From positions 8,072 to 72,071 of the forward strand of contig CAZKVV010000006.1 of the NCBI GenBank assembly GCA_964556485.1: DNA of 64,000 nucleotides. The letters are read 5' to 3'. Origin of the DNA: an uncultured Pseudomonadales bacterium (GTDB taxonomy: Bacteria > Patescibacteriota > Microgenomatia > UBA1400 > PJMF01). The position numbers and the translations under genes are program-made. The notes beneath the pieces are model-generated. The model saw only the letters and a program-made list of their open reading frames with translations. It made no database searches and had not been told where the DNA came from. Shown one piece after another: positions 15,823 to 31,773 of the stretch. Within the stretch, counting starts at the first letter, position 1; each line of letters starts with the position of its first letter.

Positions 15823-16087
15823 AAACATCCATTCCCATAAAGCAAATTGCCAATGTCCAAACCTCAACAAGTGAAAATGGTGATCAAAAGTTTAATGCCA
15901 TGAATATTGGGATGAGATGGATTCTAATTGAAACTACTGGTGGTAAAACGCACAAAGTTAAGCTTCGTCAGAAAGATGCAGAGGAAGTATCAGAAAAAAT
16001 TTTAGAACTTATAAATTAGATAGGGCCTGTGGCATAATATCACTATTAGAACACAGGCCCATCTCATTTACTGACCACTAAACAACT

Positions 16088-16225: not shown

Positions 16226-16339
16226 TATATCCTCCTTTCTGCAATAAATTTATACTGATAAAATATATAGCATTAAATTGGTTTAAATTCAACAATATAA
16301 ATCAACTTTAGTAAACATATTGCAAATATTATATTTATA

Positions 16340-17539: not shown

Positions 17540-18047
17540 ACAAAAAAGAACCACTGTTTTTGTTTGTGTCGAAGGAGATAGCGAAGAGGCTTTTATAAAG
17601 TTTATTCGGAAAAAATACTCTAGGGGGAAAACTTATATAACGGTCGAAAATGCTTACGGAGGATCACCTGACGTCGTTGCTGAAATTGCAATAAAGAGCA
17701 TATCAAGATTGGATGTTTCTCATAAAATCGTTTGGTTTGATGACGACAAAGATCTTTCAAAAGAATGGGAAGAGCAACTAAAAAGCGATGGGTTTACAAT
17801 CTTGAGGTCCAACCCCTGTTTAGAAGGTGAATTATTCCAAATTCTGGGTGAGGAAAAAAAGTATCGTAGAAACCAAGCAAAAAGATGTAAAAAAGATTTC
17901 CAGAGAAAGTACCTAAATGAAAGAACTTGTTTAGAGATTGATGATTGTGAAAAGCTATTCGACAAGATATTTTTACCCGGTCATCTTGAATTTCCATCAG
18001 AAGTTATTACGCATTTGGTAAAAATTGCTTCAAAGGAAAAAATATGA
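17532..18047 (+). CDS. DUF4276/RloB-like (TOPRIM-like) protein
   Basis: 8-nt overlap with the ATPase gene (coupled). TTVFVCVEGDSEEAFIKFI (conserved E) and VWFDDDKD (DxD) fit the TOPRIM-like RloB/DUF4276 pattern. Confidence 0.6.
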   Translation: MIRQKRTTVFVCVEGDSEEAFIKFIRKKYSRGKTYITVENAYGGSPDVVAEIAIKSISRLDVSHKIVWFDDDKDLSKEWEEQLKSDGFTILRSNPCLEGELFQILGEEKKYRRNQAKRCKKDFQRKYLNERTCLEIDDCEKLFDKIFLPGHLEFPSEVITHLVKIASKEKI

Positions 18048-19222: not shown

Positions 19223-19315
19223 TTCACTACTTCAACTCGTCAATCCCTTCACACCTTAAAACTAACTGTGCTTCCTGATGAACTGACAGTTCCTGACGCT
19301 TTATGCTGTCCCACA

Positions 19316-19367
19316 TAAAAAAATAGGAGGTGTGAAAGCAGAGCTGCAACACACCTCCTATAAAAAA
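19316..19367. terminator. bidirectional rho-independent terminator
   Basis: AAAAAAA-TAGGAGGTGTG-(16 nt)-CACACCTCCTA-TAAAAAA. 11-bp perfect stem with A/T runs on both sides. Confidence 0.6.
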
Positions 19368-19386
19368 TGTAGTTCAAAAAAATCTT

Positions 19387-20262
19387 CTATCTTCGAGTAA
19401 CTTCCCCAACTCCTGTGGAGCATATATTACCTTTGGGGTATTGTTCCAAAGCAATCATAGGTTCTTTTTGTGACATATTTGCATGTCCCAAAAAAATCCA
19501 TGAATTCTCTTCGATTGTCAAACCGTCACTGCAAATCAACGTGACCGGGCCACCACCCCCATGAGATTCTAGCGCGAGAACCGCTTGATACAAATCGGGG
19601 TAATCTTCTAAACCATCACCAAAAGAAACCTTGTTGAGAAATAAAATTTCCAGCGTAGCATCTGGCTCAGGTTGTGAAAGAAGGGGAGTTGATTCAATAG
19701 TGATTTTAGTTACACCTTCTAAACTGCGATCACTATTTTCTGGAATTAATACCTCATCGTTCATTTTCGACAGCGAACCATCGGTGAAAATAATGATTCC
19801 TTTTTGGCAGTCTGACATTTCTGTCCGTGCCAATTCTATGGATCCTGATCCCGAAATTGTCGGATTAAGAGTAGCATTGTCAAACTTAATCTGGTCTTCA
19901 AAACAATAAAAAATTACAATCTCAGGGTAATTTTTTACTTCTTTGAAATTTTTAACTTGATGGATTATTACACTATCCGGATTCTCAAAAAAACTTCTCA
20001 CAACGTCTTCATTGAAATTCATTGAATGAACTTCGACTATATCAAGATATGTCTTCCCCTCATTGATGCTGACTTGAGAAACAGGGGTAAAACTAAATCG
20101 ACAGGTAAATAACGTTGCAAGAAGTAGTAGAAAAATTGCCATAATTGCATGATTTTTGCGAAAAAGAATTGCTGCAATTATAATTAGCACTACTAGTAGT
20201 ACCAACATGAATCCTCTCCTTTTTTGAACTTTTAAAGAAACAGTCATCTGTTTGAATATCAA
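19387..20262 (-). CDS. membrane-anchored hypothetical protein (291 aa)
   Basis: N-terminal TM helices LVLLVVLIIIAAILF. No motif. Confidence 0.5.
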   Translation of the reverse strand: MIFKQMTVSLKVQKRRGFMLVLLVVLIIIAAILFRKNHAIMAIFLLLLATLFTCRFSFTPVSQVSINEGKTYLDIVEVHSMNFNEDVVRSFFENPDSVIIHQVKNFKEVKNYPEIVIFYCFEDQIKFDNATLNPTISGSGSIELARTEMSDCQKGIIIFTDGSLSKMNDEVLIPENSDRSLEGVTKITIESTPLLSQPEPDATLEILFLNKVSFGDGLEDYPDLYQAVLALESHGGGGPVTLICSDGLTIEENSWIFLGHANMSQKEPMIALEQYPKGNICSTGVGEVTRR

Positions 20263-20435
20263 CAGACAACATTATTGTTTTAATTGTATCACATTGTAAA
20301 AAAAAGCATATAATGTATAAGCCTATAACTTTACAAAATGGCACAACTGTGCTACAATTCTTATCTAGACTCCTCGAGATCTTTAATAACACTTTGCAGG
20401 GAGCAAATTATACATTTCTGCCCTATTAGAGGGGT

Positions 20436-20867
20436 TTGAAGTGTATAACATATCTCTCTGTTATTCAAAAAAAGGAGCGTGAAATTTTGACTAAGCTCAA
20501 ATTCATTGGTTTTCAACTTGCTTTACTTAGTATTTTTGGATTCGCATGTCTGTTGATGGTGACAAACACAGACACTCAAACGACCGTGCAAATTTCTATC
20601 GGAGATGAAATATTTGTTCCCGATGGATACGAGTTTGTTGATGCATCTGCCTATGGCCAATACGCAAACATCGCAACCTACTATTGTGAGGAAATCAGCA
20701 CGGGGCGCATATTTACATGCACCGACGGCCGAATAGGTAGTGAAATAGTTATACCTGAGGGTTACTATTTCATAGGCGCATCTGCCTATGGCCAATATTT
20801 CAATAATTTAGTCATTATTTGCGGAAAGGAAGACAGCAAGCAAGTCTTCATTTGCCAAGTACAATAA
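20436..20867 (+). CDS. small secreted/membrane protein with two tandem copies of an about 37-aa repeat
   Basis: FVPDGYEFVDASAYGQYANIATYYCEE then VIPEGYYFIGASAYGQYFNNLVIICGKE. Confidence 0.5.
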   Translation: MKCITYLSVIQKKEREILTKLKFIGFQLALLSIFGFACLLMVTNTDTQTTVQISIGDEIFVPDGYEFVDASAYGQYANIATYYCEEISTGRIFTCTDGRIGSEIVIPEGYYFIGASAYGQYFNNLVIICGKEDSKQVFICQVQ

Positions 20868-20897
20868 GCACTACGTCATTTTTTTGAATATCAGCAT

Positions 20898-20930
20898 AGA
20901 GCCTCAGCTAAACACTGAGGCTCTTTTTTG
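20898..20930 (+). terminator. rho-independent terminator
   Basis: AGAGCCTCAG-ctaaaca-CTGAGGCTCT-TTTTTG. Confidence 0.65.
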
Positions 20931-21090
20931 TTCAGTTTCACTGCTGGGAAACAAAATAGAAGATGGTATAATTTTAAATCTAATTTCTTTTACAAAAAAA
21001 ACACAAGCCAAGCTAGCCATGAGCGTAGCGAGGCAACAACTTTAGGTCTTTTTCCCCTTAACCCTCAGATTCGATAAATAAGGAAATCCC

Positions 21091-22065
21091 TTGTTTATCA
21101 CACACGAACTCTGGCCAGAATTTCGCTCTTACCTCACCATTGAAAAAAAGCTGAGTGATAAAGCTAGTTCAATGTATGCCCTCAAGTCGCGTTTCAACAA
21201 AGTTTCAGAACACTTCTCCACCGTTGACTTCAATCGGGCTAACTTCAATATTTTTATTTCTCAAATGAAATCCAAGAATCATGCTCCTTCTCACCTGAAC
21301 AACATGATTAAAATGGCAAAACACTTGGATAAATATTTCCAAATCAACCAACTCCAAGACTATGACTACTTCAGAGAGTCATTTACTCCCACCAAAGAAG
21401 TTTTAACACCCGAAGAGATTAAGAAACTGACAGAATTAGAAATGAGTTATAAATTTACTCGTTTCATGAACCAACGCCAGAAAGCGCTCATTTTCTTATT
21501 GGGTACAACTGGCTGCAGAATTGGTGAAGCGATAGATTTACAGTGGGATGATGTTTTTAGTGATCATGTGATTTTTAGGGAAACCAAAAATGGTGATTCC
21601 AGAGTGGTCCCCATCTCCTCAGAGTTATACCAATTATTTCTAGAATTACCTCGAAACAGACCAGAAGTTTTTTCCAGCTACCGTGGAAATAAGTTAGCAT
21701 CTCAAGAGATAAATGCCGACCTCCAGAAGAGGGCAAAATCGGCTGGGATTACTAAACACATCTATAACCACCTCTTTCGACACAGTTTTATTACCACCAT
21801 GCTCGAGCAAGGAGCTGATTCCTTAGATGTGGCAGTGATTGTTGGTCACAAAGACCCAAAAAATACCATGAGATACAAAAACTCATTGTTAAGCCACTAC
21901 CGAACAGTGATTCAAGTTCACCCACTTCTCAGAAAAACCATGACCTTTGAACAAATGACCATTAAAGTCAGAGATTTGATTTATAAGTCCATTAGTACGG
22001 AAAACTGTCATATTAGTATTCGGGAAGAAAACGGGCGGATGGTTGTGGAGTTGGCGAGAGGCTAA
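21091..22065 (+). CDS. tyrosine-type site-specific recombinase/integrase (TTG start)
   Basis: ALIFLLGTTGCRIGEAIDLQWDDV and NHLFRHSFITTMLEQGADSLDVAVIVGHKDPKNTMRYKN carry the R...H-x-x-R...Y catalytic signature. Confidence 0.85.
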   Translation: MFITHELWPEFRSYLTIEKKLSDKASSMYALKSRFNKVSEHFSTVDFNRANFNIFISQMKSKNHAPSHLNNMIKMAKHLDKYFQINQLQDYDYFRESFTPTKEVLTPEEIKKLTELEMSYKFTRFMNQRQKALIFLLGTTGCRIGEAIDLQWDDVFSDHVIFRETKNGDSRVVPISSELYQLFLELPRNRPEVFSSYRGNKLASQEINADLQKRAKSAGITKHIYNHLFRHSFITTMLEQGADSLDVAVIVGHKDPKNTMRYKNSLLSHYRTVIQVHPLLRKTMTFEQMTIKVRDLIYKSISTENCHISIREENGRMVVELARG

Positions 22066-22911
22066 TTAGTATAAAAATAAGCCAATGACTTGAAGAATAA
22101 ATGCAATCAAACTAAAGATCACTCCAATAGTACCCCATTTCCGCTGCTCCAGTCGATCTTTAACGGCAGGTAGTTTCAGATTTTCCACATCTGTATCACC
22201 ACCCCATCGCGAAACACCCAATTCAATAGCTTGCTTTTTTGAAATAAAAAGACCTTTTCCAAAGGCCAATCCACCAATTAATGAGAAGAAGGCAGACAGT
22301 GAAAACAATAATTTATCGTTCATTTCTAAATTCCCTATCACTGATGATACATCTGTTACTACTACAGTCCAGTTTATTTTTATAGGAGAAATTGAAAATA
22401 GTATGAATAGCAAACCAAGTGTCAAAAAACTAAAAAATATATTTGGGACCCAATCAATTTTAATTATTTTTAATATTGAGTATAAAAGGCCTTTTTTATC
22501 CATCAATCTTTTATATTCTTTAACTTGATCTTCAATGTGTTGTCTTTCGAAGGGTTCAATAACATCTTTATATTGAGACAAGTCAGATTCTAAATGCCAC
22601 TTACTCATTAGCCAATGAAAATGTTGCTTGCCCTGAAGAGAAGACCATAAATAAGCAACGCCAGAAAGTGTTGAGATTAAAAGAAAGAACTCTCCGATGA
22701 TAAATAAAGTATTAACTACTTTACCAGATGCTAATGCAATTGAAGAAGCGAAAACGGTGCCAGATAGAATAGTTAGATTTTTTAGTAGGTCAAAAAAATC
22801 ACCCTCAATTTCATCAAATTCTTTACTTTGTTTTTCGTGACTAGCAGAATTTGTTTTGTATCTTTGATCTTTTCTTTGTGATTGTAGGTTTTGTTCAAGG
22901 AGATCAGTCAT
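22066..22911 (-). CDS. multi-pass membrane hypothetical protein
   Basis: Several hydrophobic segments. No motif. Confidence 0.5.
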   Translation of the reverse strand: MTDLLEQNLQSQRKDQRYKTNSASHEKQSKEFDEIEGDFFDLLKNLTILSGTVFASSIALASGKVVNTLFIIGEFFLLISTLSGVAYLWSSLQGKQHFHWLMSKWHLESDLSQYKDVIEPFERQHIEDQVKEYKRLMDKKGLLYSILKIIKIDWVPNIFFSFLTLGLLFILFSISPIKINWTVVVTDVSSVIGNLEMNDKLLFSLSAFFSLIGGLAFGKGLFISKKQAIELGVSRWGGDTDVENLKLPAVKDRLEQRKWGTIGVIFSLIAFILQVIGLFLY

Positions 22912-23087
22912 GGTTGAAAACTATGTTTGAAAAAAGGCCTTTTTTGATGTATTTATATATAGTTCCTTGTACACTACTTGTACACTTATTAAATCTTTCC
23001 TAGATTCTCCGATAAGCCCTTTTCCAGGCTAAAACTCCAGAAAAGACATTATTCTAACTATCTTCTAGGGCAGTACTTGTACACTTT

Positions 23088-24572
23088 CTAGGAGTGATTC
23101 TTCAGTTTTTCAGAACCTAGAGTACTGGTCACATATTGTTGTTTTCTACTATTAGGGATGTCCGGCATTGTGTAGTCAAGGTAGCCAGCTTCCAGTAATG
23201 GCATAACATGCCTTCTAAAGTTTTCATAATGGTTTGTTAAACCCAATTTTTTAAGAATATTCTTCCTTGATTGTGGCTTTTGGCAAAGCTTAAGTACGCT
23301 TGTTTTATGTTCGTCTAAAGTGATTTGAACAAAGCCAGGATGAATTGGTAGATATGTTAAAAAGTAAGTATTATTTTCATCAGTTTCGAAAGAAGGATTA
23401 GGAGAGCCATTAGCCTTCATACTAGTTCTAATTTTGGGGATACCAGTCCCTCGACCTTCAGTAAGTCGAAGCTCTTTAAGAAAATCACCAATTCTACGAT
23501 TTCGATAGTCTCGAGCAATGATTCTGTTTTGTTTTAACATTTTGCTGTCGAGAGGAGGCAACGGACCAGGGAAACTAAGAATTTCAATCTTATCTAAACG
23601 AATGTTTACCTCGATTCCACTTTGGTGTTCATAACTTTTATGGTACACAGCATTTGCAAGTGCCTCCTCAATGGCTTCATAGGGATAATTTAAATAACGA
23701 GCTGCCTTGGCTTGACCGGACAATTTCCTAACCTTTTCCTTAATCACATTTACTTGCATGTAGTGAAGCACATCTTTTAACTGCGTATGCAGAGGTCCAT
23801 TAAATTTCTTTTCCGAGAAGTTATCACCCACCTCATCCTGGTAAGTTACAACTTGTATTTCTGCACCTCTAAAAAAATTCTCAGGATGCTCGTTAAACAT
23901 TAATAGTCCAACATTGACTGGTTTTAAATATTCAGTTGAACCTCGAGCAATATTCATTTTTCTGGCAATCTCTTCAACGGACAATACGGTTGTGTGTTTA
24001 TATAAATCACTACCCACTTCTTTTAAATAAGCCTGGATAAGAGATAAATCTAAATCAGCAACCTCAGCACTATGGTTAACCCGATCATCAAAGGGAACTT
24101 TTTTGGCTTGCTCTAGTAATTTTTGCTCATCTTGACCTTTGGCTTGTACAGTTTTAGAGCCCTTTCGTATCCAATACACCTTTTGACCTTTTTGTCCTAA
24201 AGAGAACGGAGCTTTATAAGGTCGGTTATCTCCACCTGGTACCCAAATTACTAGAATGTGCTTCTTTTGAAAGACAAACGGTTCAACTACGGGTGTGTAG
24301 TTCGGCTCAAGTAAGTAGGAAAGTTCAATAAGTTTTTTCTGAAAGGGATCGAGTTGGTTTTTCTGTAAACCTACTGGTGGTAATTCAGGTTCTCCATCAA
24401 CTTCTTTAATACCTAAAATTATATAACCACCCCCCCAGTTATTAACGTCATTAGCAAAAGCACAAATTGAATGAACTATCTCCTCAGGGTTAAAACCTTC
24501 TTTAAATTCAATTCTTTCAGATTCGACTGTTTCTTTACTGATCAGCTGGTTAATGTTGATTGGAAGTCCCAT
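23088..24572 (-). CDS. AlbA_2 (Schlafen-like) DNA-binding domain plus C-terminal HATPase-like ATP-binding protein
   Basis: N-terminal ESERIEFKEGFNPEEIVHSICAFANDVNNWGGGYIILGI is typical of the divergent AAA_4/AlbA_2 putative DNA-binding domain. Confidence 0.7.
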   Translation of the reverse strand: MGLPININQLISKETVESERIEFKEGFNPEEIVHSICAFANDVNNWGGGYIILGIKEVDGEPELPPVGLQKNQLDPFQKKLIELSYLLEPNYTPVVEPFVFQKKHILVIWVPGGDNRPYKAPFSLGQKGQKVYWIRKGSKTVQAKGQDEQKLLEQAKKVPFDDRVNHSAEVADLDLSLIQAYLKEVGSDLYKHTTVLSVEEIARKMNIARGSTEYLKPVNVGLLMFNEHPENFFRGAEIQVVTYQDEVGDNFSEKKFNGPLHTQLKDVLHYMQVNVIKEKVRKLSGQAKAARYLNYPYEAIEEALANAVYHKSYEHQSGIEVNIRLDKIEILSFPGPLPPLDSKMLKQNRIIARDYRNRRIGDFLKELRLTEGRGTGIPKIRTSMKANGSPNPSFETDENNTYFLTYLPIHPGFVQITLDEHKTSVLKLCQKPQSRKNILKKLGLTNHYENFRRHVMPLLEAGYLDYTMPDIPNSRKQQYVTSTLGSEKLKNHS

Positions 24573-25214
24573 TAGCTTACGATTATAAACCCAAAATACA
24601 GATTTTAATTTGCCATTTTATGATGAAAACTTGACAAGCAAATAGGCCTGTAATTTATAATTGTTCTGTAGGCATTTTGTTTGCAACAATCTACATTATA
24701 TTACCTCAGATTAGATTCCCAATTACATTGCTTGGTAACAAGCTAGCGTTGTCAGAGTTAGAGACTGACAGCCGAAGTGGTCGAAGGTTTGGAAAAAAAA
24801 TCGCGAAGGCGTACTGTGCTGGACACATATGTAGAACAACCTACCACTCGGGGGTGCAACTCCCCTTAAAGGCCATTGAGATACGATGGAAAGAATAGTC
24901 ACTTAAAGGAGTGGGAAATCTGAGGGGCATCTTGATTACAAAAGCTGTGATCAAGGTAAAAACCCATACTCCGCCTCATCATCCAGAAATGGGTGTAAGC
25001 TTTTTTGCAAGGTTGTGTTTGTCTACAAGATAAGTGAGGGCTCGGTTTTTGTACTATGACCACCTCCACCCTGGAAGGGAGTACCAGCTAGGTATAGATA
25101 GTAAGCTAAAAAGTACTGGGGAAAAACAGAGAAATACTTTGATCGTGATGAGCCACCTACCAATGGGGGTAGGGGGGGCAATCACACCTAAGCTGTTTTG
25201 CAGCGCAAGAAGAT

Positions 25215-27524
25215 TCAACCTAATGGGGGAGTATTCTGGCTCATGGATCTAACTAGTTTTTCCAGAGAACCTAAACCCTCTTGTTTTTTTTGTAAAAATT
25301 TCTCGATGTCTTTTATCTTTTCACCGTTTATTTCTAGAATTTCTGTTAAGCCAGAACTATTTTTTCTTGACAGGAAACCCAACATTTTTTCGTCAGAAAC
25401 AAGATAGATCTGACCTGACGTATAGCTTTCCTCGGAGGCATATTTGTAAGCTTTCAAATTACATTTTTCAATTTCAAGGCAATTCCCTTCAACAACACCA
25501 TTTACATCAAACTTTGAATCATCTATTTCTTCAGTGACAAGAACACCGTTTTTAACCGTAATCTTAATGGTATATTTTGAGTTTATTTCCCAAAACCCAT
25601 CCCACTCAAAACTACAGCTATTGGTAAGCGCGTCAATGAATGCGAGATGATACCTATTAATTTGTGCACCCACTTCCTGAAACTTTTTCTCGCTAGCTTC
25701 TTCTTCTTTAACTTTTCTACTAACACTCCCTAAGATTTCATCAACTCTCTCGTCATACCCATTCTTATTTTCCCTAATAATTGACCTTAATATTCCCAAG
25801 GCTTTATCTTTAAGACCAATTTCCAAATACTTGCTAGCAATGTTACTTCCAGCTAGTGTATTGCCAAGTTCATATGATTTTTCATACATTTCCATTCCTT
25901 TTATTGGCATAGAAAAGGGTGCATTAGAAAATAACACTCCTAGATTATTTTTAACATCTTGATTCTCGGAGTTATTTTTTAAAGCTACTTTATAGTGGTA
26001 AAGAGAAAGTTCTTCTTGACCAATTTCAGAATATTGATAGCCACAATCAAATCTGTTACTTCCATCGGGATCTAAGTTTACTGAAGCCTCTAGAAATTGT
26101 AATCCTCTTTTTGAGTTTCTAGTTTCCAGGTAATACTTTCCTAGCATTCGAAACATATCAGCTCTTTTGAGTTTACTATCAGGTTCATTCAAAAGTTCTT
26201 TTAGCCTTTTATCAAAGTCATGAGCATTAGCACATTTACATTCTTTACAAATTCTTGAAAAATGAAGCAAGTATGAAAGCCGGATATTTGGATCCTTTTC
26301 ATTTTGAAGTGCCAAAAGTATGTAATTGTGAGCCTGTTCAAAGGAGCTATTTTTGAAAAAATACTTAGATAAATATAAGAAAACAAAAGAGTGTTTAGAA
26401 TCTTTTTCTTTGCTAAGTAACTCATTGGGATGAAACACATAAGTGTAAACCACATCTAGTGCAACTTGCGTTTTTTTGTTTTTATATTTTTCTTTAATCT
26501 CGTTTACTAGACCTTCAGCTATATTTTTTTGATCTTTGTTTTTTAAGTCATCCAGCGCTATTTCTAATAAAATTAGATGGACTGAAAGATCTTCTTTAAA
26601 ATCTTCTATGAATTTTGCTCTGTCTTTTCCAATAGTAATATCGGTAATCCAGCCAGAGTCTATCTTCTTTGTTACAAATCTATAATTATTCGTACTCATT
26701 TGGTGCAAAATGTCATCAACGGCACCAATCACTTCGTCGACACTGTTAAATCTATCTTCAGGTTCCTCTGTAACCATACGTTCAATTAAGTTTTTCTGAA
26801 TCAAGGGTAAATATGTACTATTTCCCTCGAATAAACTATTTAAATCTCCAACTTCTTCTCTAAATGTTTTGCTTTTACCCGTGATCATAAACAGCAAAAT
26901 TTTACCTAAGGAATAAATATCAGACTTTATAGATGCCTTTGAGGGATCTTTGAATTGTTCTGGCGAAATAAAATATACTGGCCCAACTATTTCACCTTCA
27001 TCAGTAATATTTTTTTTATCTTCGTTATCTTTAATAAGACTTATACCAAAATCAGACACTATCACTTCATTTTGTGTTGGGAAGAGAAGAATGTTCTCGG
27101 GTTTTAGGTCTCTATGGATGATTTTTTGTGAGTGGGCACTATCCACACCAATAAGAATTTCCTTGAACAAAAGCAACGATTTTTCTAGATCAAAAATGAA
27201 AAAATCATTATCTTTAAGACTTCCGTAAGGAGCATAATCTGTAACATAGAAAATATCACTGACCGTATCATTCACTACATCCAAATTGTGATCGTAAATT
27301 TTAATAATATTTTTATTGCCATTAAGTTTTATAATTGCCTCTATCTCATTTCTGGCTCTCTCAAATTTTTTTTGTTGAAATTTTTTGATTTTGAATAATT
27401 TTAATGCATAATTCTTATCGTCTTCTAAGGAAACAACCTTAAATACTGTGCCTTGCCCACCAGAGTTTATTTGGTTAAGTACTTTCCATTTTCCTTTATA
27501 TATTTTGGGGTTATTTTTTGGCAT
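25215..27524 (-). CDS. Hanks-type Ser/Thr protein kinase with a long C-terminal extension (TPR-like plus unknown)
   Basis: GGQGTVFKV (G-loop), ALK (VAIK-like), HRDLKPENILL, DFGIS. Confidence 0.8.
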   Translation of the reverse strand: MPKNNPKIYKGKWKVLNQINSGGQGTVFKVVSLEDDKNYALKLFKIKKFQQKKFERARNEIEAIIKLNGNKNIIKIYDHNLDVVNDTVSDIFYVTDYAPYGSLKDNDFFIFDLEKSLLLFKEILIGVDSAHSQKIIHRDLKPENILLFPTQNEVIVSDFGISLIKDNEDKKNITDEGEIVGPVYFISPEQFKDPSKASIKSDIYSLGKILLFMITGKSKTFREEVGDLNSLFEGNSTYLPLIQKNLIERMVTEEPEDRFNSVDEVIGAVDDILHQMSTNNYRFVTKKIDSGWITDITIGKDRAKFIEDFKEDLSVHLILLEIALDDLKNKDQKNIAEGLVNEIKEKYKNKKTQVALDVVYTYVFHPNELLSKEKDSKHSFVFLYLSKYFFKNSSFEQAHNYILLALQNEKDPNIRLSYLLHFSRICKECKCANAHDFDKRLKELLNEPDSKLKRADMFRMLGKYYLETRNSKRGLQFLEASVNLDPDGSNRFDCGYQYSEIGQEELSLYHYKVALKNNSENQDVKNNLGVLFSNAPFSMPIKGMEMYEKSYELGNTLAGSNIASKYLEIGLKDKALGILRSIIRENKNGYDERVDEILGSVSRKVKEEEASEKKFQEVGAQINRYHLAFIDALTNSCSFEWDGFWEINSKYTIKITVKNGVLVTEEIDDSKFDVNGVVEGNCLEIEKCNLKAYKYASEESYTSGQIYLVSDEKMLGFLSRKNSSGLTEILEINGEKIKDIEKFLQKKQEGLGSLEKLVRSMSQNTPPLG

Positions 27525-27664
27525 TTTGAGGATTTTTTCTAACGGGTTTATAAATTAATGAAAACAACTCTAGAAAGTTTGTCGCTCGTGTGCTTGCCTC
27601 ATTGTCACTTAACTCTTCACCAAACTCTTTTCTAAAAATCTCTCTAAATTCATCAATGGCTTTT

Positions 27665-28234
27665 TTACTTAGTTGCATATTTTTCAATTGTTTCTAGTAA
27701 GAAAGGGAATTGTGCATATTTCTCACCTGCTGTACCAATACTGAAGTGCTGTTGACCTTCTTTTACTAGCAGTTCACCATCTAATTCTTCTGAAAGGTAC
27801 TGCGCATGATCTAATGGGCAGTAAGGATCATTATCAGAATGTATGAATATAAACTTCCTAGCTTTAGTTTTAATGTTTGCAAAGTCAAAAGGTTGTAAAA
27901 AAAGCTCCTTGAGAGCATCCCATTTCAAGTCGTTTCTAAATGAACCAACTAGATAGCAGACATCAACCCTTTTTCCCATTGGTAAAGCCTCTAACAAGCC
28001 CAAAATGGCAACTGCACCAGAAGAATGACCTATTAGTATAGTCACTTCATCAAAATAGAAATCGTTGTTAGAGAAAAGGAACTGATTGTATCTTTGAATG
28101 TTTGGTTTGTCGGCTTGCGGAAGATCTGGCGTCCAGACTTTGTAATTACGCTGTTCTAACTCTTTCTGCAACCAGGGAAACCAATTTGCCGTATGATTTC
28201 CACCTGTTCCATGAAGAATGAGAGCTTTTTTCAT
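27665..28234 (-). CDS. RBBP9/YdeN-family alpha/beta serine hydrolase
   Basis: ALILHGTGGN...LIGHSSGAVAIL (GxSxG)...FIHSDNDPYCP. Confidence 0.65.
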   Translation of the reverse strand: MKKALILHGTGGNHTANWFPWLQKELEQRNYKVWTPDLPQADKPNIQRYNQFLFSNNDFYFDEVTILIGHSSGAVAILGLLEALPMGKRVDVCYLVGSFRNDLKWDALKELFLQPFDFANIKTKARKFIFIHSDNDPYCPLDHAQYLSEELDGELLVKEGQQHFSIGTAGEKYAQFPFLLETIEKYATK

Positions 28235-28290
28235 TAAAAATGATTATAACTCAAGAAGATGCCTTCAGATAGCTGACTTATATTGATATG

Positions 28291-28551
28291 TTAGTCTTTC
28301 ATTACTTTCGTAAAGAATCCCAAAGGTCCTCTGACTTTCCCATCTCTAACAGTCTGCCTATAGAAGGTGAAAATAGGGAATTTGTACCAACCAACATGGT
28401 AGAAAGCACGTTGTTTAAGTCTTGATGTTTTGGTCCAGCGCTCAACTTGATTTATGCCAAGGCTTCGCTTCACTGATTTCTTTACCATGGTAATGCCTAC
28501 TATGGTTTTGAGTGATGGTTTCCGGTAGCGAAGTAACTTCACTTGTTCCAA
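28291..28551 (-). CDS. small basic hypothetical protein (86 aa)
   Basis: ORF only. Weak support. Confidence 0.25.
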   Translation of the reverse strand: MEQVKLLRYRKPSLKTIVGITMVKKSVKRSLGINQVERWTKTSRLKQRAFYHVGWYKFPIFTFYRQTVRDGKVRGPLGFFTKVMKD

Positions 28552-29030
28552 CTTTCACAATTGTCTCTAGCTTCAATCATCTCTTGAGGAAATATGCCAC
28601 TATCTAAATACACTCCAGTAATTGCTTCAAATTCTTTATAACCAAATCTATTTTCAAACCAGCCAATGTAACACATACAGTAAGCTGTGGATGAGTTTTT
28701 CTCACAGCCTTTCATAAAAGTGTCTACCGCATCTTCTGGGTAATCAGGCAAAGAAAAATCAACCCTAGGATCAATGGATTTGTATGCTTCTTCAATGTCT
28801 TTTGCCGGATCTGAGCTAGGCTTTGGGGAGGGTGTAGTTTTTTGTTTCGTAGGAGCTTTAATTGGTGTTGTAGTTGCCACTGGCTTAACAACCTGTTTTT
28901 GTTTTGGGACTCTACCTGCCATTAAAATCTTGTTCTCTGTCCACATTGAACCAACAAACCAACCAGCTAGAAAGATTGAGGTAAAAAGCAGTAAATAAGG
29001 TTTTTTCATGTTGTTGTTTGATGACAGCAA
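28539..29030 (-). CDS. secreted/membrane-anchored hypothetical protein with Pro/Thr/Lys-rich linker
   Basis: Signal/TM MKKPYLLLFTSIFLAGWFVGS, low-complexity linker, Cys-containing C-terminal domain. Confidence 0.5.
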   Translation of the reverse strand: MLSSNNNMKKPYLLLFTSIFLAGWFVGSMWTENKILMAGRVPKQKQVVKPVATTTPIKAPTKQKTTPSPKPSSDPAKDIEEAYKSIDPRVDFSLPDYPEDAVDTFMKGCEKNSSTAYCMCYIGWFENRFGYKEFEAITGVYLDSGIFPQEMIEARDNCESWNK

Positions 29031-29136
29031 TTTTATGTGGGTATTTCTTCAAGAGATGGGACTGATAGTAGCATTAAAACATCTTAGCTACAAGGAGTAG
29101 CTGTATCAAAGGTGGGACTGTCAGTAGTCTGTATGC

Positions 29137-29367
29137 ATGGGAAAAGAATTGGAAGTTAAATCTAAATTTCATGTCGCTTTCGGAAAGCATCTTCAGGCTG
29201 TTAGAAGCCGAGTTGGTATCACACAAGAAAAATTAGCTGAACTTGTGGACATAGATCGTTCATATATTGGTTTTATTGAAAGAGGTGAGAGGAACATTAC
29301 ACTAGACAAGATTTATAAATTGTCTAAAGCTCTCAAGGTAAAACCAAAAGATCTTTTTGATTTCTGA
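29137..29367 (+). CDS. XRE-family helix-turn-helix transcriptional regulator
   Basis: FGKHLQAVRSRVGITQEKLAELVDIDRSYIGFIERGERNITLDKIYKLSKAL. Confidence 0.8.
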   Translation: MGKELEVKSKFHVAFGKHLQAVRSRVGITQEKLAELVDIDRSYIGFIERGERNITLDKIYKLSKALKVKPKDLFDF

Positions 29368-29463
29368 GTACCCGAGCCCTCCATTGAAAAGTACCTTTTC
29401 AGTTCTGTTTTTAATGTCCTGAAGGCACCTTGCCATAAAAAGAAATTTTCAAAAAAAGTCGAG

Positions 29464-30054
29464 TTAGCTCTCATCTGACAGCAAGTTATCAAGATATTTT
29501 TTTCTAGCTAGGGTTTTGCCTCTGCGATATTTCAACTTGGCATTTTTACTTGTCTTGATATAAGAGTAAGTTTTTTTACCGCTATTTCTAATTGCCACAA
29601 ACCCTGCAAGCTTTAAAAGTCTTCTGTATGATTCATCACTTTTGAAGAGTACAGAAAACTCATTTTCAATTAGTTTTTTAAGATGATTGACTGTCCAATA
29701 TTTAAATATGAACTTGATTTTAGTTTGTGGTCTAGAAGTTTGCAGTTTTTCAATAATGAAGTTAACTTGTTCTTCAGTTAACATCATTCTATTACCAGGT
29801 TTAACCTTATTAATTAAGCCTGCAATTCCATGCTTCTTATAAAGTGCTATCCAATGGTAAATAGTCCTTCTGTGGTATTTTTTACCAAGTATTTCACTGT
29901 TGTTTTCAAAGTAATTAATGCTTCTTCCTTTGGCTAACAACCAAATAGCCTTCATTCGTGCTTTTTGGCTTTTATTTCCACGAAGATGACCAACTCTTAA
30001 GTACTCCATTTGATTATGTTTTTCTTCAGGTGTGCAATTTCCAAATAGGTCCAT
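29464..30054 (-). mobile_element. IS630/Tc1-family transposase N-terminal DNA-binding (HTH) fragment. DDE catalytic domain absent.
   Basis: RMKAIWLLAKGRSINY...YHWIALYKKHGIAGLINKVKPGNRMMLTEEQ...KYWTVNHLKKLIENEFSVLFKSDESYRRLLKLAGF matches the IS630 transposase N-terminus. The ORF ends after about 196 aa. Confidence 0.55.
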
Positions 30055-30115
30055 TCTTATATTCTCGCAAAAAATAGGTTGTTGACAATACCCTCAAATT
30101 ATTGGGCTTGATAGC

Positions 30116-31174
30116 ATGCTTTTCTTTCTTGTCATAAGATACCAACCGTATCGAGACAAAATGAGAAAAAGCAATAAAAAAATACTAGCTGAAACAAGTT
30201 GGGAAGACTTCATGAAATACCTTGTTGGCAATAAAAATCATTCAGCAAATCCAAGTGCAATCTCAGCTGAAAAAAGTCGCTTTCAAATCATTGTGAAGTG
30301 GTTTGAAAATAAAAAGTGGACAGCTGAAAACTTTGAAGCTCTTTTGTGGTCATATCGTGAAGCGGGAAGAAGCCAAGGCACTTTAAACAAGTTGATTTCT
30401 ATGGGCAAATTGCTAGGTGAGTATCTAAATGACGATGTTGCAAAGCATTTGAAATGTAAGGTGGAAAAACTCAAAAGAATTGAGGATGTTGTTAGGTCTG
30501 AAGAAATTAAAGCTTTAGCGAACTTGTATGTCAACTACTCTACAGATGTCGATTTTATTAATTTGAGACAAAAGGCATTAATACTCTTTATGAGCACAAC
30601 AGGTGCGAGGATTGGAGAAGCAACAAAGCTTAAGTGGCAAAATTTGAAACATGAACCCGAAAAGAAGTTTGAGTTGCTAGACACAAAAAATGGTACTGAC
30701 AGATGGGCATACCTAAGTGATGAGGTTTTTGATCTCATTAATAAATTACCAAGACGAAGTGATTATATTTTTTGCTCAATTCATGGCAAACCACTCAGGA
30801 GTCAAGAAATAAATAAAGACTTAAAAAGACGGGCGTCTCAACTCAATATTAAGAAAGAGATTCATACCCATGTTTTAAGACATAGCTATGCAACTGAAAT
30901 GTTAGAGTGTGGTGTTAGTGAAACAGATGTTTGTGTCCTTGGCGGTTGGAAAGATCCCAAAATGTTACTGCGGTACAAAAACAGTGATCATGACTATTAT
31001 TCAATGACTGCCAAGTACCATCCATTAGTTAGACATGAACTTAATTGGGAGAAACAAGCTGAAACCTGTACTAGGTTAGTTAAAAAGTTCTTTTATCTTC
31101 TTGGGCCAGCAATTTCAACTGAAGTAACTCAGGACGAGTTTGTGGTGAAAGTCAAACGGAATGCTGGTTTTTAA
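30116..31174 (+). CDS. tyrosine-type recombinase/integrase, paralogous to 21091..22065 (real start possibly at 30161)
   Basis: ALILFMSTTGARIGEATKLKWQNL and HVLRHSYATEMLECGVSETDVCVLGGWKDPKMLLRYKN. Confidence 0.85.
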   Translation: MLFFLVIRYQPYRDKMRKSNKKILAETSWEDFMKYLVGNKNHSANPSAISAEKSRFQIIVKWFENKKWTAENFEALLWSYREAGRSQGTLNKLISMGKLLGEYLNDDVAKHLKCKVEKLKRIEDVVRSEEIKALANLYVNYSTDVDFINLRQKALILFMSTTGARIGEATKLKWQNLKHEPEKKFELLDTKNGTDRWAYLSDEVFDLINKLPRRSDYIFCSIHGKPLRSQEINKDLKRRASQLNIKKEIHTHVLRHSYATEMLECGVSETDVCVLGGWKDPKMLLRYKNSDHDYYSMTAKYHPLVRHELNWEKQAETCTRLVKKFFYLLGPAISTEVTQDEFVVKVKRNAGF

Positions 31175-31253: not shown

Positions 31254-31568
31254 ATGACACAAAAGAGTTGGATTCTTTTTTTTGCAGTTATCGTGATTTC
31301 AGGTTCTCTAATCTACCGATCAGGACATTATCAAGGCAAGCCATTACTACAGTGGGTAGCAGATTATATAACCATAAAGGGTCAATATGAGGCGTTGTTA
31401 AACCAACAAGCTCAACGCCAATCATGTCTAAATAAAGTAAATAAGGATCTCAAGCCAGTATTAGACGAACTGAAAGCAAATCCTAATCAAGTCAAGTCAA
31501 ATGATTTAACACTCGTTGCATTAACCGCATGGGCAATGAAAGACCGCTGTTTAGAGTTATACCCTTAG
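31254..31568 (+). CDS. membrane-anchored hypothetical protein (104 aa)
   Basis: N-terminal TM WILFFAVIVISGSLIY. Confidence 0.45.
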   Translation: MTQKSWILFFAVIVISGSLIYRSGHYQGKPLLQWVADYITIKGQYEALLNQQAQRQSCLNKVNKDLKPVLDELKANPNQVKSNDLTLVALTAWAMKDRCLELYP

Positions 31569-31697
31569 TTTAAGGTGTGCATTTTGCCCCAACCCCTGTT
31601 TTCCTGCTCCTAAAACCTCGATTTTTGGGTATAATAGTGATCTAATATTTTTATGTCGCATCTAGGTTTCTAGAGGAAACACAGTTCTGACCTACAA

Positions 31698-31773
31698 GCC
31701 AAGCTAGCCAAGGTGGTCACGGCGCATGTCTGAAAAACATGAGATTGAAGTTCGACTCTTCAGCTTGGCACCA
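31698..31773 (+). tRNA. tRNA-Phe (anticodon GAA), CCA encoded
   Basis: GCCAAGC-TA-...CATGT-CTGAAAA-ACATG-...TGAAG-TTCGACT-CTTCA-GCTTGGC-A-CCA. Perfect 7-bp acceptor, U8, U33, A37. Track ORF 31726..31929 overlaps it and is spurious. Confidence 0.75.

What the first reader, a model, noticed from the sequence alone, without database searches (positions are those of the whole stretch)
22066..31174. Second integrase-bounded accessory block
AT-rich cargo sits between two paralogous tyrosine integrases (21091..22065 and 30116..31174). It contains:
- a 769-aa kinase with a canonical catalytic core (GGQGTVFKV, HRDLKPENILL, DFGIS) and an about 450-aa C-terminal region of unknown function;
- an AlbA_2/Schlafen-like DNA-binding ATPase;
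- an RBBP9/YdeN hydrolase;
- an XRE repressor;
- a truncated IS630 transposase.

Kinase plus DNA-binding ATPase combinations under XRE control are recurrent in phage-defence and abortive-infection islands. The presence of Hanks kinases in a reduced genome is itself notable.
Basis: partly seen in the sequence, partly recalled or inferred. Interest (0 to 1): 0.6.

Follow-up and report, generated by a model that had tools for sequence, protein, structure and literature searches.

The report
Mobile defence-gene island at tRNA-Phe
The block is the cargo of a 10.7-kb mobile element inserted at the start of a tRNA-Phe gene in a small-genome (Patescibacteria/CPR) bacterium; it carries separate candidate anti-phage genes (a Schlafen-type RNase-ATPase and a rare, uncharacterised protein kinase), not one multi-gene system, so it is ordinary in kind.

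Summary

**Accessory status is now shown directly.** In seven related Microgenomates loci, tRNA-Val and tRNA-Phe lie 3-954 nt apart. Here they are 15,875 nt apart.

**The unit is not bounded by the integrases.** An exact 17-bp direct repeat sits at 21003-21019 and at 31694-31710, the latter overlapping the 5' end of tRNA-Phe. It delimits a 10.7-kb integrative element that holds both integrases. A separate 5.2-kb segment to the left carries an AbiL-like system.

**The AlbA_2 ATPase** is a prokaryotic Schlafen-GHKL-wHTH protein ("Schlatpase") with intact nuclease and ATPase motifs. This family was recently tied to phage defence.

**The kinase** is a catalytically intact Hanks kinase followed by helical/TPR repeats, a long helix and a family-specific beta domain.
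- The family is rare: 8 clusters at 50% identity among 1.84 billion representatives.
- It always occurs as a solo gene.
- Its GC is lower than its flanks in all 8 contexts.
- At least 3 of the 7 other contexts are mobile elements.

**No conserved link joins the kinase, the Schlafen protein and the hydrolase.** An XRE homologue lies near the kinase in 2 of the 7 other contexts, but with no fixed arrangement. The "kinase + ATPase under XRE" system is not supported.

Verdict: a typical tRNA-targeted defence island. The kinase's function is untested.

The parts
15747..15822 (+). tRNA-Val(TAC), left edge of the 15.9-kb island; last core feature before the insertion
   Evidence: ARAGORN and Rfam. 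In relatives it lies 3-954 nt from tRNA-Phe.
15823..21002 (.). Segment A: a 5.2-kb accessory segment with no integrase and GC 0.34. It holds the AbiL-like operon and three unknown genes.
   Evidence: It has no counterpart between tRNA-Val and tRNA-Phe in relatives. GC.
16340..19222 (+). AbiL-like operon: AbiLi-like AAA_21 ATPase (16340-17539), AbiLii/RloB-like protein (17532-18047) and a 392-aa unknown (18044-19222), with overlapping gene ends
   Evidence: PADLOC gives AbiLi E 3.5e-70 and AbiLii E 1.8e-6. Pfam gives AAA_21, and RloB/DUF3226 weakly. A homologous pair (32%/31% identity) occurs in Patescibacteria loci L044/L045.
21003..21019 (+). attL: the 17-bp core ACAAGCCAAGCTAGCCA, a partial copy of the tRNA-Phe 5' end, 72 nt upstream of Int1
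   Evidence: Exact repeat found. 0 of 100 shuffles gave 3 or more matches at up to 3 mismatches.
21091..22065 (+). Int1, tyrosine recombinase (324 aa)
   Evidence: Pfam Phage_integrase E 5e-28. Xer-like, but below every NCBIfam cut-off. The R, HxxR and Y motifs are visible in the alignment.
22066..22911 (-). 281-aa protein with about 4 hydrophobic segments, no family match
   Evidence: No Pfam, PADLOC, NCBIfam or PHROG hit. Hydrophobicity.
22964..23084 (-). Three GTGTACAAG(T/G)A boxes in the 3' flank of the Schlafen gene, conserved with locus L043
   Evidence: The downstream genes are unrelated.
23088..24572 (-). Prokaryotic Schlafen-GHKL ATPase-wHTH protein ('Schlatpase', 494 aa). Motifs: ESERIEFK 17-24, CAFAN 37-41, EALANAVYH 303-311, GRGTG 373-377.
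   Evidence: Pfam SLFN_AlbA_2, HATPase_c_4 and Fic-like_C. Motifs. More than 6,700 homologues at 53-79% identity. Literature.
24573..25214 (.). 642-nt ORF-poor gap with locally raised GC (0.45-0.47) and reversed GC skew; unexplained
25215..27524 (-). 769-aa Hanks Ser/Thr kinase (residues 1-278), then helical/TPR repeats (291-585), a long helix (592-633), a beta domain (643-737) and a C-terminal helix
   Evidence: Pfam; family alignment A1; AF2 models; TPR assignment; fold search.
27511..27687 (-). 58-aa ORF that overlaps both the hydrolase stop and the kinase start; no homologue found
   Evidence: No family hit. This exact sequence is not in the protein collection.
27665..28234 (-). YdeN/RBBP9-type serine hydrolase (189 aa; GHSSG nucleophile motif)
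   Evidence: Pfam Ser_hydrolase E 1e-14. A 64%-identical chromosomal homologue sits among NUDIX/HD genes in relative L058.
28539..29030 (-). 163-aa protein with a Pro/Thr/Lys-rich linker, no family match; first gene of the minus-strand array divergent from XRE
29058..29127 (+). Two C-box-like palindromes, GGGACTGATAGTAG and GGGACTGTCAGTAG, upstream of XRE
   Evidence: Expected 0.12 matches; 0 of 100 shuffles gave 3 or more.
29137..29367 (+). XRE-family HTH protein (76 aa), closest to restriction-modification controller (C) proteins
   Evidence: Pfam HTH_3. PADLOC Control_protein E 5.7e-22.
29464..30054 (-). IS630 transposase remnant: N-terminal HTH part only, DDE domain missing
   Evidence: NCBIfam transpos_IS630 matches profile positions 2-120 of 299, at 53.9 bits, below the cut-off of 100. 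Pfam HTH_32/HTH_29.
30116..31174 (+). Int2, tyrosine recombinase (352 aa), 35% identical to Int1
31254..31568 (+). 104-aa protein with one N-terminal hydrophobic segment; last gene inside the element
31694..31710 (+). attR: the same 17-bp core, made of 4 nt plus the first 13 nt of tRNA-Phe
   Evidence: The same 17-mer stands as an unoccupied site in relative L051.
31698..31773 (+). tRNA-Phe(GAA), the integration target and right edge of the island

Best explanation
**What it is**

The block is most of a 10.7-kb integrative element (window 21003-31710). A tyrosine recombinase inserted it into the 5' end of tRNA-Phe(GAA), inside a conserved tRNA array of a Microgenomates (Patescibacteria/CPR) genome. 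Recombination within a 17-bp core left one core copy next to Int1 (attL). The other copy forms the start of the intact tRNA-Phe (attR).

Together with an older, integrase-less 5.2-kb segment carrying an AbiL-like abortive-infection operon, the element forms a 15.9-kb island between tRNA-Val and tRNA-Phe.

**Cargo**

The cargo is a patchwork of independent modules, not one operon-encoded system.

1. A Schlafen-GHKL-wHTH protein. By analogy with characterised Schlafen proteins, it would oligomerise on ATP binding and cleave tRNA when triggered, stopping translation in infected cells. This is inferred.
2. A solo, horizontally mobile Hanks kinase. Its TPR array and variable C-terminal beta domain would act as the sensing part. 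The kinase would phosphorylate host or phage proteins, in the manner of Stk2 or PD-T4-6. This is inferred and carries the lowest confidence.
3. A captured YdeN-type hydrolase.
4. A controller-type XRE repressor. It probably autoregulates through two palindromic boxes. Its original downstream partner appears to have been lost next to an IS630 remnant. This is inferred.

**Shown versus inferred**

Shown: gene content, domain and motif integrity, the repeats, the empty site in relatives, and the lack of conserved linkage. Inferred: the recombination event and all biochemical activities.

**Confidence by part**

The overall figure of 0.7 combines about 0.85 for the integrative element and island, about 0.6 for a defence role of the Schlafen protein, and about 0.35-0.4 for a defence role of the kinase.
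For: **Island**
- In relatives L051, L064, L070, L080, L088, L110 and L111 the order is CMK-like gene, tRNA-Leu, tRNA-Leu, tRNA-Val, tRNA-Phe (then tRNA-Gly in most). The Val-Phe gaps are 85, 52, 954, 3, 26, 63 and 39 nt. In the window the gap is 15,875 nt.
- None of the island genes occurs in those loci, apart from an unlinked hydrolase homologue.
- GC is 0.353 for the island and 0.42 for the core.

**Element borders**
- The exact 17-mer stands at 21003 and at 31694. The first copy is 72 nt before Int1. The second spans the tRNA-Phe start.
- L051 carries the same 17-mer as an unoccupied site.
- The contig of the closest relative, L046, ends 1 nt beyond the tRNA-Phe 5' end.

**Independence of the cargo**
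- Kinase contexts differ in every case: L001, L002, L008, L011, L013, L014, L015. Schlafen contexts differ too: L043, L044, L129.

**Schlafen protein**
- Domains and intact motifs.
- It hits the SLFN-GHKL part of a pAgo profile.
- Family-level defence evidence comes from PMC13056530 and bioRxiv 10.64898/2026.05.29.728809.

**Kinase**
- The catalytic residues K42, E60, D139, N144 and DFG are invariant in 22 sequences.
- Only 8 clusters match the C-terminal profile over most or all of its length.
- Its GC is below that of its flanks in all 7 other contexts, for example 0.309 against 0.466 in L001.
- It is cargo of a serine-recombinase + Rep_1 mini-element in L011/L012, and of other mobile-element contexts in L014 and L015.
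- The beta domain is the most variable globular region: 29% mean pairwise identity, against 54% for the kinase domain.

**XRE**
- Control_protein E 5.7e-22, with two palindromic boxes upstream.
Against: **Element**
- No excised circle or empty site from the same population was seen.
- Insertion at the 5' end of a tRNA gene is less usual than at the 3' end.
- Two integrases in one element are unexplained, and no third att copy separates them.
- The origin of segment A is unknown.

**Schlafen protein**
- Schlafen-HisKinase fusions were among the seven systems tested in E. coli by Taboada et al. Only the DUF262 and Ig-like fusions protected. Defence by this exact architecture is therefore unproven.

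**Kinase**
- The PADLOC hits (mad6 1e-43, PD-T4-6 2e-42) cover only the kinase domain. They are no better than a phage kinase PHROG (1.7e-45) and not far above PknB (3e-34), so they are not specific.
- Ten neighbours of kinase homologues have no PADLOC hit.
- Two homologues sit among housekeeping genes. One of these keeps the same context on many metagenome contigs.
- STK-TPR is also a housekeeping architecture, as in PknG.
Confidence: 0.7

Rival explanations
1. One reading: the kinase, the AlbA_2 ATPase and the hydrolase form one multi-gene defence or abortive-infection system, controlled by the XRE repressor.
For: All of these genes are on the minus strand, downstream of a promoter region divergent from XRE. 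The hydrolase, the 58-aa ORF and the kinase overlap end to end. XRE homologues at 45-50% identity lie within a few genes of kinase homologues in L008 and L014, and near a Schlafen homologue in L043.
Against: No kinase homologue has a Schlafen or hydrolase neighbour in 7 other contexts, and no Schlafen homologue has a kinase neighbour in 4 contexts. The position and orientation of XRE differ in each case. A 642-nt gap holding a promoter-like site separates the kinase from the Schlafen gene. The hydrolase has a 64%-identical chromosomal homologue in an unrelated operon.
Confidence: 0.07
2. The kinase is an ordinary signalling kinase, a PknG-like STK with a TPR scaffold. It regulates host physiology and merely happens to lie on an island here.
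For: STK with a C-terminal TPR is found in five bacterial STK families, including housekeeping PknG. Homologues P0002 and P0010 sit between housekeeping genes: Obg/YceG, and GreA/SerRS/SecA. P0010 keeps that context on more than 20 contigs from several samples. No known defence genes lie next to the homologues.
Against: The gene has lower GC than its flanks in all 8 contexts. It has no conserved neighbour, phosphatase or substrate gene. It is carried by mobile elements in L011/L012, L014, L015 and the window. The family is very rare and patchy: 8 clusters at 50% identity.
Confidence: 0.25
3. The block is a decayed prophage, with the integrases and XRE as remnants of lysogeny control.
For: An integrase next to an att site, an XRE repressor in a divergent arrangement, and a tRNA target.
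Against: No block protein matches any PHROG family, except the kinase against a kinase PHROG. There are no capsid, tail, terminase or replication genes. Searches with the integrases and the kinase family found no relatives of the integrases and no full-length kinase homologue in IMG/VR viral contigs.
Confidence: 0.05
4. The 17-bp repeat is coincidental or a local duplication. The two recombinases are Xer-like chromosomal enzymes, and the block accumulated by other means.
For: Both integrases score best against Xer-type models, though below the cut-offs. No excision product was observed.
Against: An exact 17-mer is expected about 1e-5 times in 64 kb. The shuffle test gave a mean of 0.11 matches even when 3 mismatches were allowed. 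One copy is 72 nt from an integrase start, and the other is exactly the conserved tRNA-Phe 5' end that stands unoccupied in relatives.
Confidence: 0.08

Closest known systems
tRNA-targeted genomic islands and integrative elements with tyrosine recombinases (defence islands at tRNA hotspots)
   Same: An integrase next to an att core that duplicates part of a tRNA gene. Low GC. Accessory and defence cargo. An empty site in relatives. An IS remnant.
   Different: The core overlaps the 5' end of the tRNA, not the 3' end. There are two paralogous integrases inside one pair of repeats. No conjugation, mobilisation, replication or phage genes were detected. The host is a CPR bacterium.
Prokaryotic Schlafen proteins with a GHKL ATPase ('Schlatpase'; pSlfn-HisKinase-HTH class; PMC13056530 and bioRxiv 10.64898/2026.05.29.728809)
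   Same: SLFN_AlbA_2 domain with the Ex4ExK motif and the Schlafen box. A PF13749 GHKL domain with N-box and glycine box. A C-terminal wHTH. It lies within 10 kb of a known defence system. It is a solo gene.
   Different: No Argonaute, NACHT, Ig-like or DUF262 sensor is present. Defence by this plain architecture has not been demonstrated. The trigger is unknown.
Single-gene defence kinases PD-T4-6 (E. coli) and Stk2 (Staphylococcus)
   Same: A cytoplasmic Hanks kinase with no membrane segment. A solo, horizontally mobile gene. The kinase domain matches PD-T4-6 profiles end to end (E 2e-42).
   Different: It carries an extra roughly 480-aa C-terminal part (helical/TPR repeats, a long helix and a beta domain) that is absent from those profiles. 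The similarity is no higher than to phage-encoded or housekeeping kinases. No phenotype is known.
PknG-type Ser/Thr kinases with a C-terminal TPR scaffold
   Same: A soluble kinase followed by TPR repeats.
   Different: No rubredoxin domain. No conserved substrate or operon partner. Carried on mobile elements. It has an additional family-specific beta domain.
AbiL (AbiLi/AbiLii) abortive-infection system of lactococcal plasmids (segment A, outside the finding's coordinates)
   Same: An AAA_21 ATPase (AbiLi profile, E 3.5e-70) followed by an overlapping small RloB/Toprim-like gene (AbiLii, E 1.8e-6).
   Different: A third overlapping 392-aa gene of unknown family. The AbiLii match is weak.
Controller (C) proteins of restriction-modification systems
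   Same: A 76-aa HTH_3 protein. Its best defence-library match is Control_protein (E 5.7e-22). Two GACT-N3-AGT palindromes lie just upstream.
   Different: No restriction or methylase gene follows. An IS630 remnant lies downstream instead.

Membership tests
Tyrosine-recombinase integrative element / genomic island | Encodes a tyrosine recombinase with the catalytic R...HxxR...Y residues | tested here: met
   Pfam Phage_integrase E 5e-28 and 8e-28. Int1 shows TGCRIGEA / HLFRHS / MRY and Int2 shows TGARIGEA / HVLRHS / LRY in the alignment.
Tyrosine-recombinase integrative element / genomic island | Flanked by direct repeats (attL/attR) that duplicate part of the target | tested here: met
   Exact 17-mer at 21003-21019 and 31694-31710.
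Tyrosine-recombinase integrative element / genomic island | Unoccupied target site in related genomes | tested here: met
   tRNA-Val and tRNA-Phe lie 3-954 nt apart in 7 relatives, and the 17-mer is intact in L051. The relatives are distant, at 46-59% protein identity.
Tyrosine-recombinase integrative element / genomic island | Excision to a circular form, or attP/attB junctions | not testable with these tools
   This needs the raw reads of the source sample, or an experiment.
Prokaryotic Schlafen / Schlatpase | SLFN_AlbA_2 domain with the Ex4(E/D)xK nuclease motif and the Schlafen box | tested here: met
   PF04326 E 2e-18. ESERIEFK at 17-24 and CAFAN at 37-41.
Prokaryotic Schlafen / Schlatpase | Fused GHKL ATPase (PF13749) with ATP-binding motifs | tested here: met
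   PF13749 E 5e-13. EALANAVYH at 303 and GRGTG at 373.
Prokaryotic Schlafen / Schlatpase | Located near known defence genes (within 10 kb) | tested here: met
   The AbiL-like pair ends 5.0 kb away.
Prokaryotic Schlafen / Schlatpase | tRNA cleavage and protection against phage | not testable with these tools
   Biochemical and phage assays are needed. The HisKinase fusions tested in E. coli did not protect.
PD-T4-6 / Stk2-type defence kinase | Match to the family's profile HMMs | tested here: inconclusive
   PD-T4-6 E 2e-42 and mad6 E 1e-43, but on residues 4-289 only. The scores are similar to phage kinase phrog_2361 at 1.7e-45 and comparable to PknB at 3e-34.
PD-T4-6 / Stk2-type defence kinase | Acts as a single gene without a conserved partner | tested here: met
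   No shared neighbour across 8 contexts. This shows solo occurrence, not function.
PD-T4-6 / Stk2-type defence kinase | Confers phage resistance that depends on kinase activity | not testable with these tools
   An experiment is needed.
Hanks-type Ser/Thr kinase | Gly-rich loop, VAIK lysine, alpha-C glutamate, HRD, catalytic Asn, DFG and an APE-like motif | tested here: met
   GGQG 22-25, K42, E60, HRD 137-139, N144, DFG 158-160 and PEQ 188-190 are invariant or nearly invariant in 22 sequences. The fold matches PknB with TM 0.8 on the target.
AbiL | AbiLi ATPase plus an adjacent AbiLii | tested here: met
   AbiLi E 3.5e-70; AbiLii E 1.8e-6, which is weak. The genes overlap by 8 nt.
Restriction-modification controller (C) protein | Small HTH_3 protein with C-box palindromes upstream | tested here: inconclusive
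   Control_protein E 5.7e-22. Two GACT-N3-AGT palindromes are present. Binding was not tested.
Restriction-modification controller (C) protein | Precedes a restriction endonuclease or methyltransferase gene | tested here: not met
   The only thing downstream is an IS630 remnant on the opposite strand.
IS630 insertion sequence | Full transposase with a DDE domain | tested here: not met
   Only profile positions 2-120 of 299 are matched, at 53.9 bits against a cut-off of 100. It is a remnant.

The most novel reading that the evidence does not exclude
The rare STK-TPR-beta-domain protein is a new kind of single-protein immune sensor. Its variable C-terminal beta domain and TPR array would recognise a phage (or rival mobile-element) component. 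The kinase would be the effector. The gene would move between phyla as a one-gene cassette, including into reduced CPR genomes that carry few other defences.
Probability: 0.3. Interest if true: 0.6.

Novelty: new member of a known kind. Interest (0 to 1): 0.35.

Why it matters
It gives a cleanly delimited integrative element in a Patescibacteria/CPR genome, with att core, target tRNA and an empty site in relatives. These organisms cannot be cultured easily, and their mobile elements and defences are known mostly from statistics. It shows that a conserved tRNA array is a hotspot where defence cargo is stacked: an AbiL-like operon, a Schlafen-GHKL protein and a kinase. It also singles out a small, horizontally mobile kinase family with a defined architecture that could be tested in a heterologous host. 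If the kinase proved to be a phage sensor, it would add a kinase effector coupled to a TPR/beta-domain sensor to the list of single-gene systems. If not, the locus remains an ordinary island.

Tried and rejected
- **Exact-sequence look-up** of the window's kinase and Schlafen proteins on contigs found nothing on record. The source record could not be read or named.
- **Genome-contig scan** with the flanking NTP-transferase gave only a 1.6-kb fragment and one distant hit. The synteny test was later done through another flank protein and a metagenome scan.
- **att sites by generic repeat finding** failed at seed 10. The repeat was found only by a targeted 16-mer comparison.
- **The 642-nt gap** yielded nothing:
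  - no Rfam family, even at E 10;
  - modest fold z-scores of -1.7, -2.0 and -2.4;
  - no second copy in the window or the loci;
  - no match in plasmids or phages;
  - no exact 24-mer in metagenomes;
  - no remnant of the DUF2779 gene that neighbours Schlafen homologues elsewhere.
- **A sensor module shared with other effectors.** The profile of the kinase C-terminus hit 12,153 proteins. Beyond the 8 family clusters, all ten proteins sampled were generic TPR proteins; one also carries a RelA_SpoT domain. No evidence of domain swapping was found.
- **Prophage reading** rejected.
- **A third att copy** upstream of Int2, which would imply tandem elements, was not found.
- **Promoter and terminator scans** were at chance level.

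Full report
**1. Observation**

The ORF list and the Pfam, NCBIfam and PADLOC scans confirm every item in the finding.

| Feature | Coordinates | Evidence |
|---|---|---|
| Int1, tyrosine recombinase | 21091-22065 (+) | Phage_integrase |
| Int2, tyrosine recombinase | 30116-31174 (+) | Phage_integrase |
| 494-aa AlbA_2 protein | 23088-24572 (-) | SLFN_AlbA_2 + HATPase_c_4 + wHTH |
| 769-aa Hanks kinase | 25215-27524 (-) | Pkinase |
| YdeN/RBBP9-type hydrolase | 27665-28234 (-) | Ser_hydrolase |
| 76-aa XRE protein | 29137-29367 (+) | HTH_3 |
| 196-aa IS630 remnant | 29464-30054 (-) | N-terminal third of the IS630 transposase profile only |

- The two recombinases are 35% identical (E 2e-58).
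- GC is 0.359 for the block and 0.42 for the housekeeping DNA to the right. That DNA encodes PGM, PPDK, iPGM and UvrABC.

**2. Where the unit really begins and ends**

tRNA scans place tRNA-Val at 15747-15822, tRNA-Phe at 31698-31773 and tRNA-Gly at 32019-32095.

The flanking 348-aa protein (32930-33976) is conserved at 46-74% identity. Its homologues are labelled Pacebacteria, Woesebacteria or 'Patescibacteria group'. The host is therefore very probably a Microgenomates (CPR) bacterium. This is an inference from names given by other sources.

I fetched 80 related metagenome loci with this protein and mapped tRNAs and window proteins onto them.
- In seven relatives (L051, L064, L070, L080, L088, L110, L111) tRNA-Val and tRNA-Phe are neighbours inside the same array: CMK-like gene, tRNA-Leu, tRNA-Leu, tRNA-Val, tRNA-Phe, followed by tRNA-Gly in most.
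- Their Val-Phe gaps are 85, 52, 954, 3, 26, 63 and 39 nt.
- In the window the gap is 15,875 nt, and none of the island genes occurs in those loci.

The DNA is accessory.

A targeted comparison of junction regions then found an exact 17-mer, ACAAGCCAAGCTAGCCA.
- One copy is at 21003-21019, 72 nt upstream of Int1.
- The other is at 31694-31710, made of 4 nt plus the first 13 nt of tRNA-Phe.
- Even with three mismatches allowed, the window is expected to hold 0.11 matches.
- Relative L051 carries the identical 17-mer as an unoccupied site, and the tRNA-Phe 5' end is conserved in all relatives.
- The contig of the closest relative (L046, 74-86% protein identity) stops one base beyond the 5' end of tRNA-Phe. 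That fits strain-variable DNA at this point but is not proof.

I therefore read 21003-31710 as one 10.7-kb integrative element with both integrases inside it.
- No third core copy precedes Int2. Whether the two integrases reflect a fused tandem pair or a two-recombinase element is open.
- The 5.2 kb between tRNA-Val and attL (segment A) is a separate accessory stretch without an integrase.
- Segment A contains an operon that PADLOC identifies as AbiLi (E 3.5e-70) plus AbiLii (E 1.8e-6), followed by an overlapping 392-aa unknown.

**3. The AlbA_2 'ATPase'**

This protein has more than 6,700 homologues. The best 120 are 53-79% identical and nearly all full length, and they come from Patescibacteria, Bacteroidota and other phyla.

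Two recent papers define the family.
- Prokaryotic Schlafen nucleases carry an Ex4(E/D)xK motif, and their most common fusions are to a histidine-kinase-like ATPase with or without an HTH. 69.6% lie within 10 kb of a defence gene. Two of seven tested systems protected E. coli, and those two were not the HisKinase fusions (PMC13056530).
- The SLFN + GHKL 'Schlatpase' supradomain makes up 58.6% of 103,533 prokaryotic SLFN proteins. [quoted passage not shown]

The window protein has ESERIEFK (17-24), CAFAN (37-41), the GHKL N-box EALANAVYH (303) and GRGTG (373). Its PADLOC hit is to the SLFN-GHKL part of a pAgo profile. It meets every sequence criterion of the family. Its activity and trigger are inferred.

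Its homologues occur in other mobile contexts.
- L043 has Prim-Pol/AAA_25, XRE, NUDIX and GIY-YIG genes.
- L044/L045 have Fic, an IS3 transposase, an AbiL-like pair homologous to the one in the window, and DUF2779.
- A conjugative Prosthecochloris plasmid carries a homologue next to DUF2779.

None of these contexts has a kinase.

**4. The kinase**

A database search found 23 full-length or nearly full-length relatives at 36-49% identity. The score then drops sharply, from 326 to 159 bits, to generic kinases. One relative is labelled Candidatus Collierbacteria.

The alignment shows all catalytic residues invariant.

AlphaFold models (pLDDT 80 for the whole protein and 86 for the C-terminus) give this architecture:

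| Residues | Part |
|---|---|
| 1-278 | kinase |
| 291-585 | helical repeats |
| 592-633 | one long helix |
| 643-737 | nine-strand beta domain |
| 740-763 | terminal helix |

- Residues of about 455-590 are canonical TPRs: E 1e-29 to designed consensus TPR proteins, with NCBIfam PilW/Tgl hits.
- The beta domain has only weak resemblance to up-and-down barrels (TbpB, avidin, lipocalin; best E 0.02). I treat its fold as unassigned.
- A profile of residues 290-769 matched over most or all of its length only 8 clusters (7 full-length proteins and one fragment) among 1.84 billion representatives. The ten of the remaining hits that I sampled are generic TPR proteins.
- No full-length member occurs on plasmids or viral contigs.

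Genomic contexts:

| Locus | Neighbours |
|---|---|
| L001 | Obg, YceG |
| L002 | GreA, SerRS, SecA |
| L008 | small unknown genes and an XRE |
| L011/L012 | serine recombinase and Rep_1 |
| L013 | LexA-like, UmuC |
| L014 | XRE, Replic_Relax, IS1595, topoisomerase |
| L015 | DUF3987 |

- There is no shared neighbour, and ten unknown neighbours have no PADLOC hit.
- In all seven other contexts, and in the window, the kinase gene has lower GC than its surroundings. Examples are 0.309 against 0.466, 0.327 against 0.42, and 0.228 against 0.33. Even the 'housekeeping' cases therefore look like single-gene insertions.
- Mean pairwise identity falls from 54% in the kinase domain to 29% in the beta domain.

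I conclude that this is a solo, horizontally mobile gene. That fits a conflict (defence-type) role, but the evidence is circumstantial. The PADLOC matches (mad6, PD-T4-6) cover only the kinase domain and are matched by a phage kinase PHROG. STK-TPR also occurs in housekeeping kinases.

**5. The other cargo**

- The hydrolase has a 64%-identical homologue in relative L058, inside a chromosomal NUDIX/HD-type gene run. It looks like a captured ordinary gene.
- A 58-aa ORF overlaps both the hydrolase stop and the kinase start. It has no homologue in any kinase context. This tight spacing is the only local hint of co-expression.
- The XRE protein matches R-M controller proteins best. It is preceded by two palindromic boxes, GGGACTGATAGTAG and GGGACTGTCAGTAG. 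No restriction or methylase gene follows; the IS630 remnant does. I infer an orphaned or re-used regulator.
- XRE homologues at 45-50% identity lie near kinase homologues in L008 and L014 and near a Schlafen homologue in L043. Their distance and orientation vary.

**6. Verdict**

- 'Accessory' is strongly supported, and the borders are now defined.
- 'Defence island' is supported by the AbiL-like operon and by Schlafen family membership.
- 'Kinase + ATPase under XRE control' is not supported.

The locus is a new member of a known kind: a tRNA-targeted integrative defence island. Within it is an uncharacterised kinase family that is worth one heterologous test. The unexplained items are the 642-nt GC-rich gap, the presence of two integrases, the origin of segment A, and the conserved boxes behind the Schlafen gene.

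Noticed in passing
window 24573-25214: A 642-nt ORF-poor gap lies between the kinase and Schlafen genes. GC is 0.45-0.47 against about 0.33 next door, and the GC skew is reversed. The plus strand at 24725-25010 folds into five or six clean hairpins and ends in a terminator-like hairpin at 24980-25005 (z -2.4). It has no Rfam hit, no second copy and no match anywhere searched.
   Followed up: partly
window 22964-23084; L043 9489-9634: Three GTGTACAAG(T/G)A boxes sit just after the Schlafen stop codon. They are conserved with the 79%-identical homologue's locus, while the spacer and the downstream genes differ. They may be an operator or module border, perhaps for the protein's own wHTH.
   Followed up: partly
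window 16340-19222; L044/L045 2874-4639: An AbiL-like ATPase and small-protein pair, with a third overlapping 392-aa unknown gene. A homologous pair (32%/31% identity) lies 3.4 kb from a Schlafen homologue in another Patescibacteria MAG. There the third gene (404 aa) is not detectably similar.
   Followed up: partly
window 29058-29127: Two 14-nt palindromic boxes (GGGACTG-NN-AGTAG), 56 nt apart, immediately upstream of the XRE start. They resemble the C-boxes of restriction-modification controller proteins, yet no R-M genes follow.
   Followed up: partly
L046 3675-9189 (closest relative): The relative has different insertions in the same tRNA neighbourhood. About 3.3 kb (MFS and unknown genes) lies between the NTP-transferase gene and tRNA-Gly, and a 570-aa gene lies between tRNA-Gly and tRNA-Phe. 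Its contig ends 1 nt beyond the tRNA-Phe 5' end. The whole array behaves as an insertion hotspot.
   Followed up: partly
L069 versus L070: These two loci have identical gene positions up to the flank protein. L070 then continues with the tRNA array about 1.7 kb downstream. L069 has no tRNA within 10 kb and instead has a distant integrase homologue (26% to Int1). This looks like strain-level insertion at another point of the same region.
   Followed up: no
L011 7572-12235 / L012 (4,976-bp contig): A kinase family member sits directly after a serine recombinase and a Rep_1 rolling-circle replication gene, in a non-CPR genome (GC 0.32). The 5-kb contig is identical to that stretch. This is a candidate three-gene mini-element with the kinase as sole cargo. 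No terminal overlap was found.
   Followed up: partly
window 20606-20797 (ORF 20436-20867): The 143-aa protein contains an internal duplication (57-nt repeat, 77% identical), giving two copies of an EI-x-(V/I)P-x-GY-x-F-x-x-ASAYGQY motif. It matches no family.
   Followed up: no
L009, L048 (assembly GCA_964570775.1) and protein P0394: Records titled 'uncultured Pseudomonadales bacterium' carry genes 72-89% identical to this window's core genes, with Patescibacteria-type synteny. The taxonomic label of that MAG is probably wrong.
   Followed up: no
window 34951-35961 versus L048 2014-2410: The 336-aa gene with no family match is absent at the syntenic position in the closest relative, where about 400 nt stand in place of 1,077 nt. 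It is another small indel-type accessory gene next to tRNA-Leu(TAG).
   Followed up: no
window 32116-33102: The NTP-transferase ORF has an N-terminal ribbon-helix-helix-like stretch (weak HicB/CopG-type match), and its longest reading overlaps the upstream gene by 170 nt. The true start is probably the ATG at 32868.
   Followed up: no
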